DNA from: Candidatus Poribacteria bacterium
GTDB lineage: Bacteria; Poribacteria; WGA-4E; UBA9662
DNA length: 32,000 nucleotides
Assembly: GCA_002709695.1 (NCBI GenBank)
Contig: PAQF01000013.1
Location: 10,504 to 42,503, forward strand
Reading direction: 5' to 3'
Below the pieces are notes generated by a model, which was not told the DNA's origin, did not search any database, and was given only the letters and a program-made list of their open reading frames with translations. The position numbers and the translations under genes were made by a program. Shown here piece after piece: positions 7,701 to 10,139 of this stretch. How positions within the stretch are numbered: the first letter of the stretch is position 1; every line of letters starts with the position of its first letter.

Positions 7701-10139
7701 ATGCAAGATCTACGTGCATTTGTTGAGGAAATTCTTGGTTGTGATTTATCTGCGTCCATTGGTATTCCTGACACGAATAAAGCTGAAAGGCAGATTACAG
7801 AATTTCTTAGTACACTCAAGCATTTACCAACTGCAGATTTACAACGCATGATCGACTTGCAATGGGTAGTACTTGCAGCTGGAATAGGCACACGTATTGA
7901 CCCGTCATCACAGCTGAACAAAAATCTTGATATATGGATTGGAGCATCAAATACCCTTCAATTGTCTCGTCAACATTTACCTGGAACACAATCACATATA
8001 GTCGTTATCAATCCACAGATGGCAACACGACTCAATCAGCTTAGCCAAACAGAAATTGATCTCTGGCTAGGAATTAATAGAATCATGTGTATCCAACCAG
8101 ATCCCAATGGTACTGGAGGTGCCTTACGTGCTGCGCTAACTGAAATTAAGAACTCTACGTCTGAATTTATTGGTGTCACATTTGGTGACGAACCATTTCT
8201 GAACCAAGCAATGTTTGTACAAACATTGGTATCGCACTTTATTGCTCAAGCAGATATAACATTATGTGCCAAAATCCCAGAAGTCGTCGAAGACAAAGGT
8301 GGAATTTTTTTTGACACAGATGGGAAATTCTGCGGCACTACTGAATGGTATGATATGACTCAGGCTGAACAATCTTACATGCAGGAAAACCTAAAACAAG
8401 GTAAAGCCTATACGAATACGGGGATAACTATAATCCGCCGCCAAGCCATGATTGAACGGATAGACAAGCTAAAACCTCATAAGAATGGTACTGAGTATCA
8501 TCATGTCGATCTAATTCGCTTATTTTATGAAGATGGTTTATCGACAAATGTTCATGTTTATCGTAATCAAGTCGTCTCAGGAGTAAATCGCTGGTCGAAC
8601 GTACTTACAGGGGAAAATATGATTTACGAAACAAATCGACAAAAATTGGCCCAACAAGGAGTTCGTATAGACCCTTCAGCACAAATTACATTGGAGGACG
8701 ACACAATACAGATTGGTCGCGGTTGCCATTTGAGCGGAAAAATACATCTAGATCAAAAGGTAGTTATTGGTGATTATTGTCGTTTGGATAATGTTGTATT
8801 AACAGGAAATTGTACCGTTGGAGACTTTGTTGGACTGAAAAATGTTACAGCAGATGATACAATTTTCGAGGCTAATCCCATGGGGAAATCAATTACAAAA
8901 CCAATTCTGGGGCTGGCAGTACAAAGTCAAATTGAAGACAGCAAGTTTAATTGTGTAAAAGTTGGCCATAACGTCGATTTGAGTTCAATTCAGGCCTTTG
9001 GAACGGTTATACCTCCAAACATTTCACTTAAAGAACGAGTACTTGGGATACCCATTAAACCCAAGAATTGGTGGTTTGACCTCTTAGTTGACTCCGATTA
9101 TAAACCCGGTATTTTTGATTTTGGTGAAAAGAAACACTTGCCTGACTGGAAGAAACTACGTGACCATGTTCGTTCACACTCGGAAAACGAGTTAATTGCT
9201 CGATCTATCCGAAATGTTGGTCTTCGTCAAGTCACTGTCCAAACAGTCGTAGATTTATTAAATTTGGAGCAATCTAACGGTACATACATCACAGATCAGT
9301 TTACAGCAGAAGAGATTTGGGGAGCTATTTTTGAAATGGTCAAGCTTAGTACGGGGAAACAAGATCCGTACCGTACAGAAAAACTAGCAGCTAGGCAGAC
9401 AGCATATCAACTAATTCAGCAATTCCAAGATCAGGATTTAGATTGGCTTGAAAAACTGAAACTGGTTATCGCGGGGAACTTAATTGATTATAGTAACACA
9501 AGAGTTGTTAATAACCTGAATCACAACCCTAACTACTTTGAAGATTCTTTGCAAGTTGCATTGTCATCTGAGCTTTCGATAAATTGTTTCAGGCAATTTC
9601 AGGAATATATAATTAAGGCCTCACCCAAACGCTTAGTTTGGCTAATCGACAACGACGGTGAATCTGTCTTTGATATGTGGTTTATTGAACAGTTGGCAGA
9701 ATTAGGACACCAAGTTGTTGTTGTTGGAAAAAAAGAACCCGCTAGTAATGACACGACTTTGGCAGACCTTCATGAAATTGCAAGTTCCCCAACATTCCAG
9801 AAACTGCGTGACCAAATACAACAATACGGGCAGGTCACTTTTATCACCTCTGGATCTGTAACTATCGGTACAAATTTGAATCAATGCACCCCAGAATTTG
9901 CCAACGCTCTGCTCGATGCAGATATAGTTATCGCCAAAGGACAAGGTAATTTCTTTACTACGCAAGGACTGAAAAAAGACATTTTCTACTTGTTACTTTC
10001 GAAAGGAATTACTGCAGAAGAGTCAACAGGTGTTATTGCGGATCGAAGTAAAGCTATTGACGGTTTAATCTTAGGGTATGTGCCAGCTAACATCCGTTTG
10101 GAAAGCACGCTTAAAGACTACTGCCAACAACAAACGTAA
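7701..10139 (+). CDS. Three-module fusion: GlmU-like sugar-phosphate nucleotidyltransferase + left-handed beta-helix (hexapeptide) + DUF89/ARMT1-like metal-dependent phosphatase
   Basis: NTP-transferase (aa ~55-300): VVLAAGIGTRI (LAAGxGTR loop), PNGTGGAL, VTFGDEPFL. Hexapeptide repeats (aa ~320-445): IGRGCHLSGKIHLDQKVVIGDYCRLDNVVLTGNCTVGDFVGL. DUF89 (aa ~495-795): DPYRTEK, VIAGNLIDYS, WLIDNDGESVFD (DNxGE..D), ASNDTT, AKGQGNF. It is a single uninterrupted ORF. Confidence 0.75.
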   Translation: MQDLRAFVEEILGCDLSASIGIPDTNKAERQITEFLSTLKHLPTADLQRMIDLQWVVLAAGIGTRIDPSSQLNKNLDIWIGASNTLQLSRQHLPGTQSHIVVINPQMATRLNQLSQTEIDLWLGINRIMCIQPDPNGTGGALRAALTEIKNSTSEFIGVTFGDEPFLNQAMFVQTLVSHFIAQADITLCAKIPEVVEDKGGIFFDTDGKFCGTTEWYDMTQAEQSYMQENLKQGKAYTNTGITIIRRQAMIERIDKLKPHKNGTEYHHVDLIRLFYEDGLSTNVHVYRNQVVSGVNRWSNVLTGENMIYETNRQKLAQQGVRIDPSAQITLEDDTIQIGRGCHLSGKIHLDQKVVIGDYCRLDNVVLTGNCTVGDFVGLKNVTADDTIFEANPMGKSITKPILGLAVQSQIEDSKFNCVKVGHNVDLSSIQAFGTVIPPNISLKERVLGIPIKPKNWWFDLLVDSDYKPGIFDFGEKKHLPDWKKLRDHVRSHSENELIARSIRNVGLRQVTVQTVVDLLNLEQSNGTYITDQFTAEEIWGAIFEMVKLSTGKQDPYRTEKLAARQTAYQLIQQFQDQDLDWLEKLKLVIAGNLIDYSNTRVVNNLNHNPNYFEDSLQVALSSELSINCFRQFQEYIIKASPKRLVWLIDNDGESVFDMWFIEQLAELGHQVVVVGKKEPASNDTTLADLHEIASSPTFQKLRDQIQQYGQVTFITSGSVTIGTNLNQCTPEFANALLDADIVIAKGQGNFFTTQGLKKDIFYLLLSKGITAEESTGVIADRSKAIDGLILGYVPANIRLESTLKDYCQQQT

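What the first reader, a model, noticed from the sequence alone, without database searches (positions are those of the whole stretch)
7701..10139. Single 812-aa ORF fusing a GlmU-like nucleotidyltransferase and beta-helix to a DUF89 damage-control phosphatase
Three modules are readable in one uninterrupted frame. The first is the NTP-transferase (LAAGIGTRI, GTGGAL, FGDEPF). The second is a run of hexapeptide repeats (aa ~320-445). The third is DUF89/ARMT1-like (DPYRTEK, AGNLIDYS, DNDGESVFD, SNDTT, KGQGNF). DUF89 proteins are metal-dependent phosphatases acting on phosphorylated metabolites; the fusion I know of is to pantothenate kinase. I am not aware of a described fusion to a sugar-1-phosphate nucleotidyltransferase. 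Physically coupling NDP-sugar (or similar) synthesis to a phosphatase suggests an undescribed two-step activation/dephosphorylation or proofreading route. The gene has its own promoter and sits directly upstream of the secreted LamG lectin-like array, which hints at a glycan-related module. That last link is inference only.
Basis: partly seen in the sequence, partly recalled or inferred. Interest (0 to 1): 0.7.

Follow-up and report, generated by a model that had tools for sequence, protein, structure and literature searches.

The report
Poribacterial GlmU-like uridylyltransferase fused to phosphatase
This is a real single gene, found so far only in the candidate phylum Poribacteria, that joins a GlmU-type sugar-nucleotide-making enzyme to a DUF89 phosphatase in place of GlmU's usual acetyltransferase half; it appears to belong to the pathway that makes the cell-wall precursor UDP-GlcNAc, and nobody has characterised it.

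Summary
Window 7701-10139 (+) is one uninterrupted 812-aa ORF. It has a GlmU-type nucleotidyltransferase (aa 53-318), a short left-handed beta-helix (319-445), a variable linker, and a subfamily-I-like DUF89/ARMT1 phosphatase (469-812).

It is not an assembly artefact. More than 300 full-length orthologue clusters exist, many on 4-7 Mb chromosomes, and dN/dS against an 84%-identical orthologue is 0.04-0.11 in every main module, linker included.

Every known catalytic residue of the E. coli GlmU uridyltransferase is invariant in the family, and so is the DUF89 catalytic and metal-binding set. The beta-helix has no counterpart of GlmU's acetyltransferase site.

The family is narrow: about six clusters at 50% identity among 1.84 billion representatives, and every named member is Candidatus Poribacteria.

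The LamG link is not conserved. In the divergent half of the family the gene is instead coupled (1-8 nt overlap) to an upstream yvcK/glmR gene, flanked by a GlmM-type mutase and NagB. In a window-like genome, yvcK sits between the same mutase and glmS.

Best reading: a bifunctional UDP-HexNAc pyrophosphorylase/phosphatase of the hexosamine pathway. The phosphatase substrate is unknown. It is a new variant of known kinds and moderately interesting.

The parts
7701..10139 (+). Whole gene: 812-aa bifunctional protein (stop codon 10137-10139)
   Evidence: Single ORF. An identical protein was assembled independently (P0001). More than 300 full-length orthologue clusters exist. Overall dN/dS against L001 is 0.078.
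7701..7856 (+). N-terminal helical extension, aa 1-52, function unknown
   Evidence: Modelled as helices at pLDDT ~90. Poorly conserved, with 0 invariant columns and dN/dS 0.29. It is also present in the unfused relative P0151.
7857..8654 (+). GlmU-type sugar-1-phosphate uridylyltransferase domain, aa 53-318
   Evidence: NCBIfam glmU at E=3e-26; Foldseek top hits are GlmU. Invariant R65, K74, Q132, G137, D163, G200, E215, N239 and N296 align with E. coli GlmU R18, K25, Q76, G81, D105, G140, E154, N169 and N227. dN/dS 0.078.
7872..7922 (+). Nucleotide-binding signature LAAGIGTRIDPSSQLNK (aa 58-74), with catalytic R65 and K74
   Evidence: Aligns with GlmU LAAGKGTRM..LPK, with a 2-residue insertion. 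Position 62 is I only in the window clade; across the family it is K21/R7/I2/A1.
8655..9035 (+). Short left-handed beta-helix, aa 319-445 (~6-7 coils), probably a non-catalytic oligomerisation module
   Evidence: Weak LbH/Hexapep Pfam hits. Alignments to GlmU stop at E. coli residue 315-320, before the acetyltransferase site. Only 4 of 127 columns are invariant, and H349 is replaced by V in 2 of 31 sequences. pLDDT is 50-65 over 320-410. dN/dS 0.11.
9036..9104 (+). Interdomain linker, aa 446-468
   Evidence: Its length varies from 22 to 63 residues across the family while the frame is kept. dN/dS 0.04 between close orthologues.
9105..10136 (+). DUF89/ARMT1-like metal-dependent phosphatase domain, subfamily-I-like, aa 469-812
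   Evidence: PF01937 at E=2.6e-39; PH1575 (2g8l) at E=1.3e-17 and TM 0.83. Invariant N593, D596, D650, N651, N683, D684 and K746. D596 corresponds to PH1575 Asp111 and S. pombe Duf8901 Asp195 (alignment plus PMC9062747). dN/dS 0.04-0.08.
9648..9653 (+). Asp650-Asn651: predicted phospho-acceptor nucleophile/metal ligand and phosphate-binding Asn
   Evidence: The DNDGE motif aligns with PH1575 TDNVGE and is invariant in 31 sequences. The role is assigned by analogy with Duf8901 Asp248/Asn249 (PMC9062747); that mapping rests on motif correspondence.

Best explanation
The gene encodes one polypeptide with two active enzymes and belongs to hexosamine / UDP-GlcNAc metabolism in Candidatus Poribacteria.

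Module 1 (aa 53-318) is a GlmU-type uridylyltransferase. It converts UTP plus a hexosamine-1-phosphate, most likely GlcNAc-1-P, into the UDP-sugar and pyrophosphate.

The short beta-helix that follows has lost, or never had, GlmU's acetyltransferase site. It probably only holds the protein in a GlmU-like trimer.

Module 2 (aa 469-812) is a DUF89 metal-dependent phosphomonoesterase that works through an aspartyl-phosphate intermediate on Asp650.

I infer that the phosphatase acts on a phosphorylated intermediate of the same pathway. The candidate I favour is a hexosamine phosphate that should not accumulate or be uridylylated, such as non-acetylated GlcN-1-P or excess GlcN(Ac)-phosphate. On that reading the protein combines synthesis of the sugar nucleotide with a built-in relief or proofreading valve, in concert with the UDP-GlcNAc-binding protein YvcK/GlmR, to which the gene is translationally coupled in many lineages.

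Shown: the domain identities, the intact catalytic residues, purifying selection, the phylum restriction and the gene linkage. Inferred: the sugar specificity, trimerisation, the phosphatase substrate and any interaction with YvcK.
For: Domains and folds.

All GlmU uridyltransferase catalytic and substrate residues are invariant, including the uracil-reading Q76/G81 equivalents and the N169 equivalent. The DUF89 catalytic set is invariant (roles taken from PMC9062747).

No acetyltransferase counterpart was found.

Every main module is under purifying selection, with dN/dS 0.04-0.11; the short N-terminal extension is 0.29.

Gene context: yvcK-type CofD (TIGR01826, 302-315 bits against a cutoff of 196) lies immediately upstream with a 1-8 nt stop/start overlap in five independent lineages. 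An Arch_GlmM-type mutase (466-500 bits against 439) lies upstream of that. NagB (240-246 bits against 237) lies downstream in three lineages.

A window-like genome keeps the mutase-yvcK-glmS arrangement at another locus: glmS scores 811 bits against 418.

YvcK/GlmR binds UDP-GlcNAc and has reported uridyltransferase activity (PMC10128056; PMC7525490).

DUF89 enzymes are documented sugar-phosphate 'damage-control' phosphatases (summary of Huang et al. 2016 in PMC9062747).

GlmU variants lacking one half are common in PVC-related bacteria (bioRxiv 10.64898/2026.06.23.733835).
Against: There are no biochemical data for any member.

In the window itself and in all five sampled window-like contexts, no hexosamine gene lies nearby. 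The pathway assignment for this particular gene therefore rests on orthology with the linked lineages.

The NagB and Arch_GlmM scores are only just above their cutoffs, and a glgC gene also sits in two of the operons. The mutase could therefore serve glucose phosphates rather than glucosamine phosphates.

I could not check whether Poribacteria also carry a canonical GlmU or a separate acetyltransferase.

The beta-helix is modelled with low confidence, so a very divergent acyltransferase site cannot be fully excluded.

The phosphatase substrate is a guess.
Confidence: 0.55

Rival explanations
1. Product-pulling pyrophosphatase. The DUF89 domain hydrolyses the PPi released by the fused uridylyltransferase, which makes UDP-sugar synthesis irreversible at the site of production.
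For: S. pombe Duf89 and Duf8901 and human DUF89 hydrolyse PPi, and the Km for PPi is lower than for pNPP (PMC9062747). The nucleotidyltransferase reaction releases PPi and is reversible (established enzymology). A fusion would put the two sites on one particle.
Against: The domain is subfamily-I-like; its best matches are PH1575 and AF1104. The Pyrococcus subfamily-I enzyme was reported to show little or no PPi hydrolysis (PMC9062747 discussion). The reported PPase turnover is slow (32 per min). Ordinary cytosolic pyrophosphatases normally do this job.
Confidence: 0.12
2. Consecutive biosynthetic steps. Either the phosphatase makes the sugar-1-phosphate from a bisphosphate, or it removes a distal phosphate from the NDP-sugar product. 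Precedents are GmhB followed by HldC/HddC in NDP-heptose synthesis, and KdsC with KdsB.
For: Pathways that pair a phosphatase with a sugar-1-P or sugar nucleotidyltransferase exist (established knowledge, recalled and not tested here). A phosphohexomutase, whose cycle goes through a 1,6-bisphosphate, is the conserved neighbour two genes upstream. Both catalytic sites are intact.
Against: No kinase is consistently linked. The GHMP kinase downstream in L005 and L012 scores as a genuine homoserine kinase (198-243 bits against a cutoff of 168). The NTase residues match GlmU's GlcNAc-1-P site rather than a heptose or KDO enzyme. The standard hexosamine pathway has no need for such a step.
Confidence: 0.12
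3. Turnover or salvage enzyme running in the other direction. UDP-HexNAc is pyrophosphorolysed to HexNAc-1-P, which the DUF89 domain dephosphorylates. This drains the UDP-GlcNAc pool when YvcK senses an excess, or feeds host-derived amino sugars towards NagB.
For: The nucleotidyltransferase reaction is reversible (established). NagB, which is normally catabolic, is the downstream neighbour in three lineages. YvcK is a UDP-GlcNAc sensor (PMC7525490).
Against: Dephosphorylated GlcNAc would need re-phosphorylation to reach NagB, and no kinase or NagA is linked. In a window-like genome, yvcK is paired with the biosynthetic glmS.
Confidence: 0.08
4. Artefact: two adjacent genes (a nucleotidyltransferase and a DUF89 gene) joined by a sequencing frameshift or misassembly in the linker.
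Against: An identical protein was recovered from an independent assembly (P0001). Hundreds of full-length orthologues exist, many on closed 4-7 Mb chromosomes. The frame is kept through linker length changes of 22-63 aa. Linker dN/dS is 0.04. Apart from short-contig fragments, no stand-alone halves from this family appear among the best 150 of 1.84 billion representatives.
Confidence: 0.01
5. Glycan module with the downstream secreted LamG/ConA-like proteins. The enzyme would supply an activated sugar for modifying or binding those lectin-like proteins.
For: The three Laminin_G_3 genes lie on the same strand, 188 bp downstream, and the arrangement is kept in L001.
Against: L001 is a close relative (84% identity), so synteny there says little. 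None of the other sampled neighbourhoods contains LamG genes. LamG genes are scattered elsewhere in the window, for example at 16608-17447.
Confidence: 0.03

Closest known systems
Bacterial GlmU (bifunctional GlcN-1-P acetyltransferase / GlcNAc-1-P uridyltransferase; e.g. E. coli b3730, PDB 1hv9, 2oi6)
   Same: The N-terminal Rossmann-like pyrophosphorylase domain is followed by a long helix and a left-handed beta-helix. All uridyltransferase catalytic, uracil-binding and sugar-binding residues are conserved. GlmU is the best sequence and fold match for this half.
   Different: Identity is only ~20-25%, and the score of 92 bits is far below the equivalog cutoff of 367. The beta-helix is ~127 aa instead of ~200 and lacks any counterpart of the acetyltransferase site and C-terminal arm. 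There is a 52-aa N-terminal extension. A 340-aa DUF89 phosphatase sits where the acetyl-CoA-binding end of GlmU would be.
Subfamily I DUF89 'damage-control' phosphatases (Pyrococcus horikoshii PH1575, PDB 2g8l; Archaeoglobus AF1104, PDB 2ffj)
   Same: Same fold (TM 0.83). Same GNxxD, DN, ND and KGQGN motifs. The size of the core domain is similar.
   Different: Those proteins are stand-alone, ~285 aa. Here the domain is the C-terminal part of an 812-aa protein. It scores 101 bits against the 440-bit cutoff of the NCBIfam equivalog. It also carries about 70 extra N-terminal residues (aa 469-540) that it shares with P0161.
PanK4 / plant At2g17340-type pantothenate kinase-DUF89 fusion (subfamily II)
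   Same: The logic is the same: a DUF89 phosphatase is fused to an enzyme of the pathway whose phosphorylated intermediates it is thought to police (PMC4921024, Table 4).
   Different: The partner domain, the DUF89 subfamily, the pathway (CoA versus hexosamine) and the taxonomic range (eukaryotes versus one bacterial phylum) all differ.
Truncated or split GlmU variants and alternative uridyltransferases (NagU; YvcK/GlmR as accessory uridyltransferase)
   Same: They show that UDP-GlcNAc synthesis is not always carried out by a canonical bifunctional GlmU. They include uridyltransferase-only GlmU fragments with an unidentified acetyltransferase, particularly in PVC-group bacteria (bioRxiv 10.64898/2026.06.23.733835; PMC10128056).
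   Different: None of the described variants carries a phosphatase domain. No linkage of yvcK to a GlmU-like gene came up in the papers I read.

Membership tests
GlmU (bifunctional, NCBIfam TIGR01173 equivalog) | N-terminal uridyltransferase with the LxxGxGTxM(x4)PK signature and catalytic R18/K25, Mg ligands D105/N227, and uracil/sugar residues Q76, G81, E154, N169 | tested here: met
   R65, K74, D163, N296, Q132, G137, E215 and N239 are invariant in 31 sequences and aligned by HMM and hhalign to the E. coli residues. The signature has a 2-residue insertion, and NK replaces PK.
GlmU (bifunctional, NCBIfam TIGR01173 equivalog) | C-terminal LbH acetyltransferase site (E. coli R333, K351, H363, Y366, N377, K392, S405 and the C-terminal arm binding acetyl-CoA) | tested here: not met
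   Profile alignments end at E. coli residue 315-320. The LbH has 4 of 127 invariant columns, and none is a polar catalytic candidate. H349 is V in 2 of 31 sequences, and H423 is not conserved.
GlmU (bifunctional, NCBIfam TIGR01173 equivalog) | Score above the curated equivalog cutoff | tested here: not met
   92.1 bits against a cutoff of 366.85. All other GlmU models are also far below their cutoffs.
DUF89 / ARMT1-like phosphatase (Pfam PF01937) | Score above the Pfam gathering threshold | tested here: met
   135.7 bits against 25, E=2.6e-39, aa 542-766.
DUF89 / ARMT1-like phosphatase (Pfam PF01937) | Metal-binding and nucleophile residues (Asp-Asn pair, second Asp, lid Asn/Asp, phosphate-binding Lys) | tested here: met
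   D650-N651, D684, N593/D596 and K746 are invariant. D596 corresponds to PH1575 Asp111 and Duf8901 Asp195, from the alignment plus PMC9062747. The other equivalences rest on motif correspondence.
DUF89 / ARMT1-like phosphatase (Pfam PF01937) | DUF89 fold | tested here: met
   Foldseek: 2g8l at TM 0.83 and rmsd 3.6 A over 311 columns; 2ffj at TM 0.83. pLDDT is about 90 or higher over most of the domain.
DUF89 / ARMT1-like phosphatase (Pfam PF01937) | Metal-dependent phosphomonoesterase activity | not testable with these tools
   This needs a purified-protein assay.
NCBIfam 'damage-control phosphatase' equivalog NF040824 (subfamily I type) | Score above the curated cutoff | tested here: not met
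   101.3 bits against 440. The domain is related to subfamily I but is not an equivalog.
DUF89 subfamily III (yeast YMR027W, human ARMT1) | RTxK motif 40-50 residues from the C-terminus; size ~380-480 aa | tested here: not met
   The only RTxK (RTEK, aa 558-561) lies ~250 residues from the C-terminus. The best structural matches are the subfamily I proteins. The motif definition comes from PMC9062747.
yvcK/glmR-linked hexosamine operon | Adjacent, co-oriented yvcK with a GlmM-type mutase and NagB or GlmS | tested here: not met
   Not met for the window locus itself. Met for orthologues in 5 of 6 divergent-group contexts. At least one window-like genome keeps mutase-yvcK-glmS at another locus.

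The most novel reading that the evidence does not exclude
The fusion is the only GlmU-type enzyme of Poribacteria and defines a third layout of bacterial UDP-GlcNAc synthesis. In this layout GlmU's acetyltransferase half has been swapped for a proofreading phosphatase, which destroys non-acetylated or surplus hexosamine phosphates before they are uridylylated. The enzyme works as a complex with the UDP-GlcNAc sensor YvcK/GlmR, and acetylation is done elsewhere, for example at the 6-phosphate level as in eukaryotes.
Probability: 0.2. Interest if true: 0.7.

Novelty: new variant of a known kind. Interest (0 to 1): 0.5.

Why it matters
UDP-GlcNAc synthesis is essential for peptidoglycan and was long thought to rely on a canonical bifunctional GlmU across bacteria. 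Recent work shows that this is not universal. A phylum-wide enzyme that keeps GlmU's uridyltransferase but replaces the acetyltransferase with a DUF89 phosphatase would add a new layout to that picture.

It would also give a bacterial DUF89 domain a concrete pathway context. Physiological substrates are unknown for most DUF89 proteins, so that context is valuable.

Finally, it would offer a new handle on YvcK/GlmR, whose mode of action is still debated. Here yvcK is translationally coupled to a defined enzyme.

Poribacteria are uncultured sponge and marine bacteria. The protein could nevertheless be expressed and assayed directly, so the hypothesis is cheap to test.

Tried and rejected
1. CofC/CofD analogy. 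I first thought the nucleotidyltransferase might activate a phospho-acid that the CofD-like neighbour then transfers, as in F420 or di-inositol-phosphate synthesis. I rejected this because the neighbour scores as YvcK (TIGR01826, 302-315 bits) and not as CofD (TIGR01819, 26-37 bits).

2. Looking for the architecture outside Poribacteria. The genome-contig scan returned only one close relative. The exhaustive representative search found no full-length member beyond about six 50% clusters. P0161 and P0151 each share only one half.

3. The afdb50 fold search, meant as an architecture query, could not be run because the library was unavailable.

4. Huang et al. 2016, the DUF89 founding paper, is not in the held library. 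Its content is cited only through PMC9062747 and PMC4921024.

5. The promoter/terminator scan gave nothing above chance.

It found no canonical glmU, but this sample is far too small to say anything about whole genomes.

7. I considered the ThrB-like GHMP kinase downstream in L005 and L012 as a pathway kinase. It scores as a genuine homoserine kinase, so I treat it as an unrelated neighbour.
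Full report
**1. The observation**

Window 7701-10139 (+) is a single ATG-initiated ORF of 812 codons with no internal stop.

- Pfam finds an ARMT1-like/DUF89 domain at aa 542-766 (E=2.6e-39). 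It also finds weak nucleotidyltransferase matches at aa 56-190 and weak left-handed beta-helix matches.
- NCBIfam aligns aa 55-381 with GlmU models (best E=3e-26) and aa 541-769 with the 'damage-control phosphatase' model. All of these scores are far below the equivalog cutoffs.
- Among solved structures, the best sequence matches are the Pyrococcus DUF89 protein PH1575 (2g8l, 1.3e-17) and several GlmU enzymes.
- An AlphaFold2 model built on a 31-sequence family alignment has mean pLDDT 84. Confidence is high for aa 1-318 and ~470-812, and low (50-65) for aa 320-410.
- Foldseek against the PDB ranks GlmU structures first, ahead of GlgC, GDP-mannose pyrophosphorylase and ST0452. It matches PH1575 and AF1104 at TM 0.83 for the C-terminal domain.

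The three-module description is therefore correct.

**2. Is the fusion real?**

- An identical protein is present in an independent assembly (P0001).
- More than 120 proteins cover the whole query at 53-85% identity, many of them on 4-7 Mb contigs. A second search seeded with the most distant member adds another set.
- The linker varies from 22 to 63 residues across the family, and the frame is always kept.
- Against the 84%-identical orthologue in L001 (a deep-sea Poribacteria MAG), Nei-Gojobori dN/dS is 0.078 overall. By module it is 0.078 for the NTase, 0.11 for the beta-helix, 0.04 for the linker and 0.04-0.08 for DUF89.

A missed frameshift is effectively excluded.

**3. How wide is the family?**

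An exhaustive HMMER search of 1.84 billion 50%-identity representatives found only 21 proteins at E<=1e-30. These are about six clusters with the full architecture, plus fragments. Everything weaker matches the DUF89 part alone: stand-alone ~285-aa proteins or unrelated fusions.

Every member that carries a source name is Candidatus Poribacteria, including the most divergent one, which comes from a hot-spring MAG. Databases call it 'ARMT1-like domain-containing protein', 'DUF89 family protein' or a composite COG name. No paper in the searchable library combines DUF89/ARMT1 with GlmU, YvcK or Poribacteria.

Two partial relatives exist outside the family:
- P0151 has the N-terminal extension, NTase and beta-helix, but no DUF89.
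- P0161 has the same DUF89 subclade behind an unrelated N-terminus.

**4. Are the active sites intact?**

In the 31-sequence alignment (39-85% identity to the window protein), the invariant residues of the N-terminal domain are R65, K74, Q132, G137, D163, G200, E215, N239 and N296. HMM and hhalign alignments place them on E. coli GlmU R18, K25, Q76, G81, D105, G140, E154, N169 and N227. As I recall the GlmU literature, those are its catalytic, Mg-binding, uracil-reading and GlcNAc-binding residues.

In the DUF89 domain, N593, D596, D650, N651, N683, D684 and K746 are invariant. D596 corresponds to PH1575 Asp111, which PMC9062747 equates with the lid aspartate Asp195 of S. pombe Duf8901. The DN, ND and KGQGN motifs correspond to the nucleophile/metal pair, the second metal aspartate and the phosphate-binding lysine described in that paper.

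The beta-helix is different:
- Both profile alignments stop at GlmU residue 315-320, ahead of the acetyltransferase site.
- Only 4 of 127 columns are invariant.
- The one nearly conserved histidine (H349) is valine in two members.

I conclude that the protein keeps GlmU's uridyltransferase but not its acetyltransferase.

**5. Gene context**

The window gives no functional clue. Upstream lie PhyH dioxygenases and a biotin ligase. Downstream lie three LamG/ConA-like genes and alanine racemase. There is no hexosamine gene anywhere in the 32 kb. The LamG array recurs only in the close relative L001.

The family splits into two groups:
- A window-like group, at least 52% identical to the window protein.
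- A divergent group, 39-43% identical.

In five of six divergent-group neighbourhoods, the gene directly follows a YvcK-type CofD homologue, with stop/start overlaps of 1, 1, 4, 4 and 8 nt. A four-domain phosphohexomutase that scores as Arch_GlmM precedes yvcK in four of these five. NagB follows the fusion in three. The sixth context has an ApgM-type mutase upstream and a small sugar-1-P nucleotidyltransferase downstream.

In five window-like contexts, none of these genes is adjacent. However, a YvcK homologue lies on a contig of exactly 6,528,632 bp. That is the same length as the chromosome carrying a window-like fusion protein. There, yvcK sits between the same type of mutase and a genuine glmS.

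No divergent-group protein occurs on any Mb-scale contig among the best hits. I therefore read the two groups as orthologous lineages with one copy per genome. This step is inference.

**6. Interpretation**

The residue pattern, the best matches and the linkage to the mutase, yvcK, nagB and glmS together place the protein in hexosamine / UDP-GlcNAc metabolism, in the position GlmU normally holds.

YvcK/GlmR binds UDP-GlcNAc. It has been described both as a GlmS activator and as an accessory uridyltransferase (PMC7525490; PMC10128056).

DUF89 enzymes are metal-dependent phosphatases that act on sugar phosphates and other phosphometabolites. They have been proposed to limit harmful build-ups, and they work through an aspartyl-phosphate intermediate (PMC9062747).

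The reading I favour is a bifunctional enzyme that makes a UDP-hexosamine and also hydrolyses a hexosamine phosphate that should not accumulate or be uridylylated. I give this 0.55 for the general scheme and much less for any particular substrate. The rivals are:
- PPi removal. Subfamily III enzymes do hydrolyse PPi, but the Pyrococcus subfamily I enzyme reportedly does not.
- Consecutive biosynthetic steps of the GmhB/HddC type.
- A UDP-sugar turnover route running in reverse.
- The LamG glycan idea.
- An assembly artefact.

**7. Comparison with what is known, and novelty**

The protein is not a GlmU equivalog. The acetyltransferase feature and the curated score were both tested and not met. 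It does work like GlmU's N-terminal half.

It is a member of Pfam DUF89. Its nearest relatives are subfamily I, but it falls below the equivalog cutoff.

The closest conceptual precedent is the PanK-DUF89 fusion (PMC4921024). A 2026 preprint reports uridyltransferase-only GlmU fragments with unidentified acetyltransferases, particularly in PVC-group bacteria. Loss of the acetyltransferase half is therefore not unprecedented. Its replacement by a phosphatase, and the coupling to yvcK, do not appear in the literature I could search.

I classify this as a new variant of known kinds, with moderate interest (0.5). It is a well-defined, directly testable bifunctional enzyme in an uncultured phylum, and it bears on two open questions: the physiological substrates of DUF89 proteins and the role of YvcK/GlmR.

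**8. Limits**

- I could not inventory whole Poribacteria genomes for a second glmU or for an acetyltransferase.
- I could not run an AFDB architecture search or read the founding DUF89 paper.
- The inter-domain geometry is uncertain (pTM 0.58), so nothing can be said about a channel between the two sites.

Noticed in passing
P0151 (986 aa): An unfused relative of the N-terminal extension + NTase + beta-helix module (hhalign E=2e-34). It has long low-complexity insertions, an unknown 380-aa N-terminus and no DUF89 domain. Its organism is unknown.
   Followed up: partly
P0161 (828 aa): It carries the same DUF89 subclade, including the extra pre-helices and the 'Y-x-P-G' motif that follow the linker in the window protein. 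Here they are fused behind an unrelated 445-aa N-terminus with no Pfam match.
   Followed up: partly
P0147, P0155 and giant proteins P0139, P0142, P0166, P0172, P0214: Other uncharacterised DUF89 fusions turned up: SIR2_2 + TPR + DUF89, guanylate-kinase-like + DUF89, and DUF89 domains embedded in 2,000-6,000-aa proteins.
   Followed up: no
window 7884-7886 (aa 62): The window clade has Ile at the position of GlmU Lys15 (LAAGIGTR). Across the sampled family this position is K (21), R (7), I (2) or A (1). The catalytic R65 and K74 are unchanged.
   Followed up: partly
window 10328-12782 and 16608-17447: There are three tandem Laminin_G_3 (ConA-like) paralogues of ~250-260 aa, plus a fourth copy 4 kb further on. 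The first two are also present in L001, whose contig ends before the position of the third. They are not linked to the fusion gene in other Poribacteria.
   Followed up: partly
window 3402-4340 (+) and 6756-7547 (-); also L002, L005, L012, L014, L017: PhyH-family dioxygenase genes recur near the fusion gene or near yvcK in several Poribacteria loci. This may only reflect how abundant the family is in these genomes.
   Followed up: no
window 15732-16496 (-): A bacterial TANGO2-family protein (PF05742, E=2.7e-74).
   Followed up: no
window 19099-20040 (+): A CotH kinase-family protein (PF08757, E=3e-30).
   Followed up: no
L003 4180-8008: In the hot-spring Poribacteria MAG, glgC, the phosphohexomutase gene and yvcK are each split into two ORFs, probably by frameshifts or assembly errors. 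The fusion gene right after them is intact.
   Followed up: no
L017 10220-12151: The called GlmS start lies 36 codons upstream of the obligatory Met-Cys start (MCGIVGY). The apparent 35-nt overlap with yvcK is therefore an annotation artefact. The genes are adjacent, about 70 nt apart. An IS605 OrfB/TnpB gene lies 1.5 kb downstream.
   Followed up: partly
L008, L005, L012, L017 yvcK genes: Poribacterial YvcK proteins are 389-417 aa. The TIGR01826 match ends near residue 300-317, which leaves a C-terminal extension of ~90-110 residues that the YvcK model (310 positions) does not cover.
   Followed up: no
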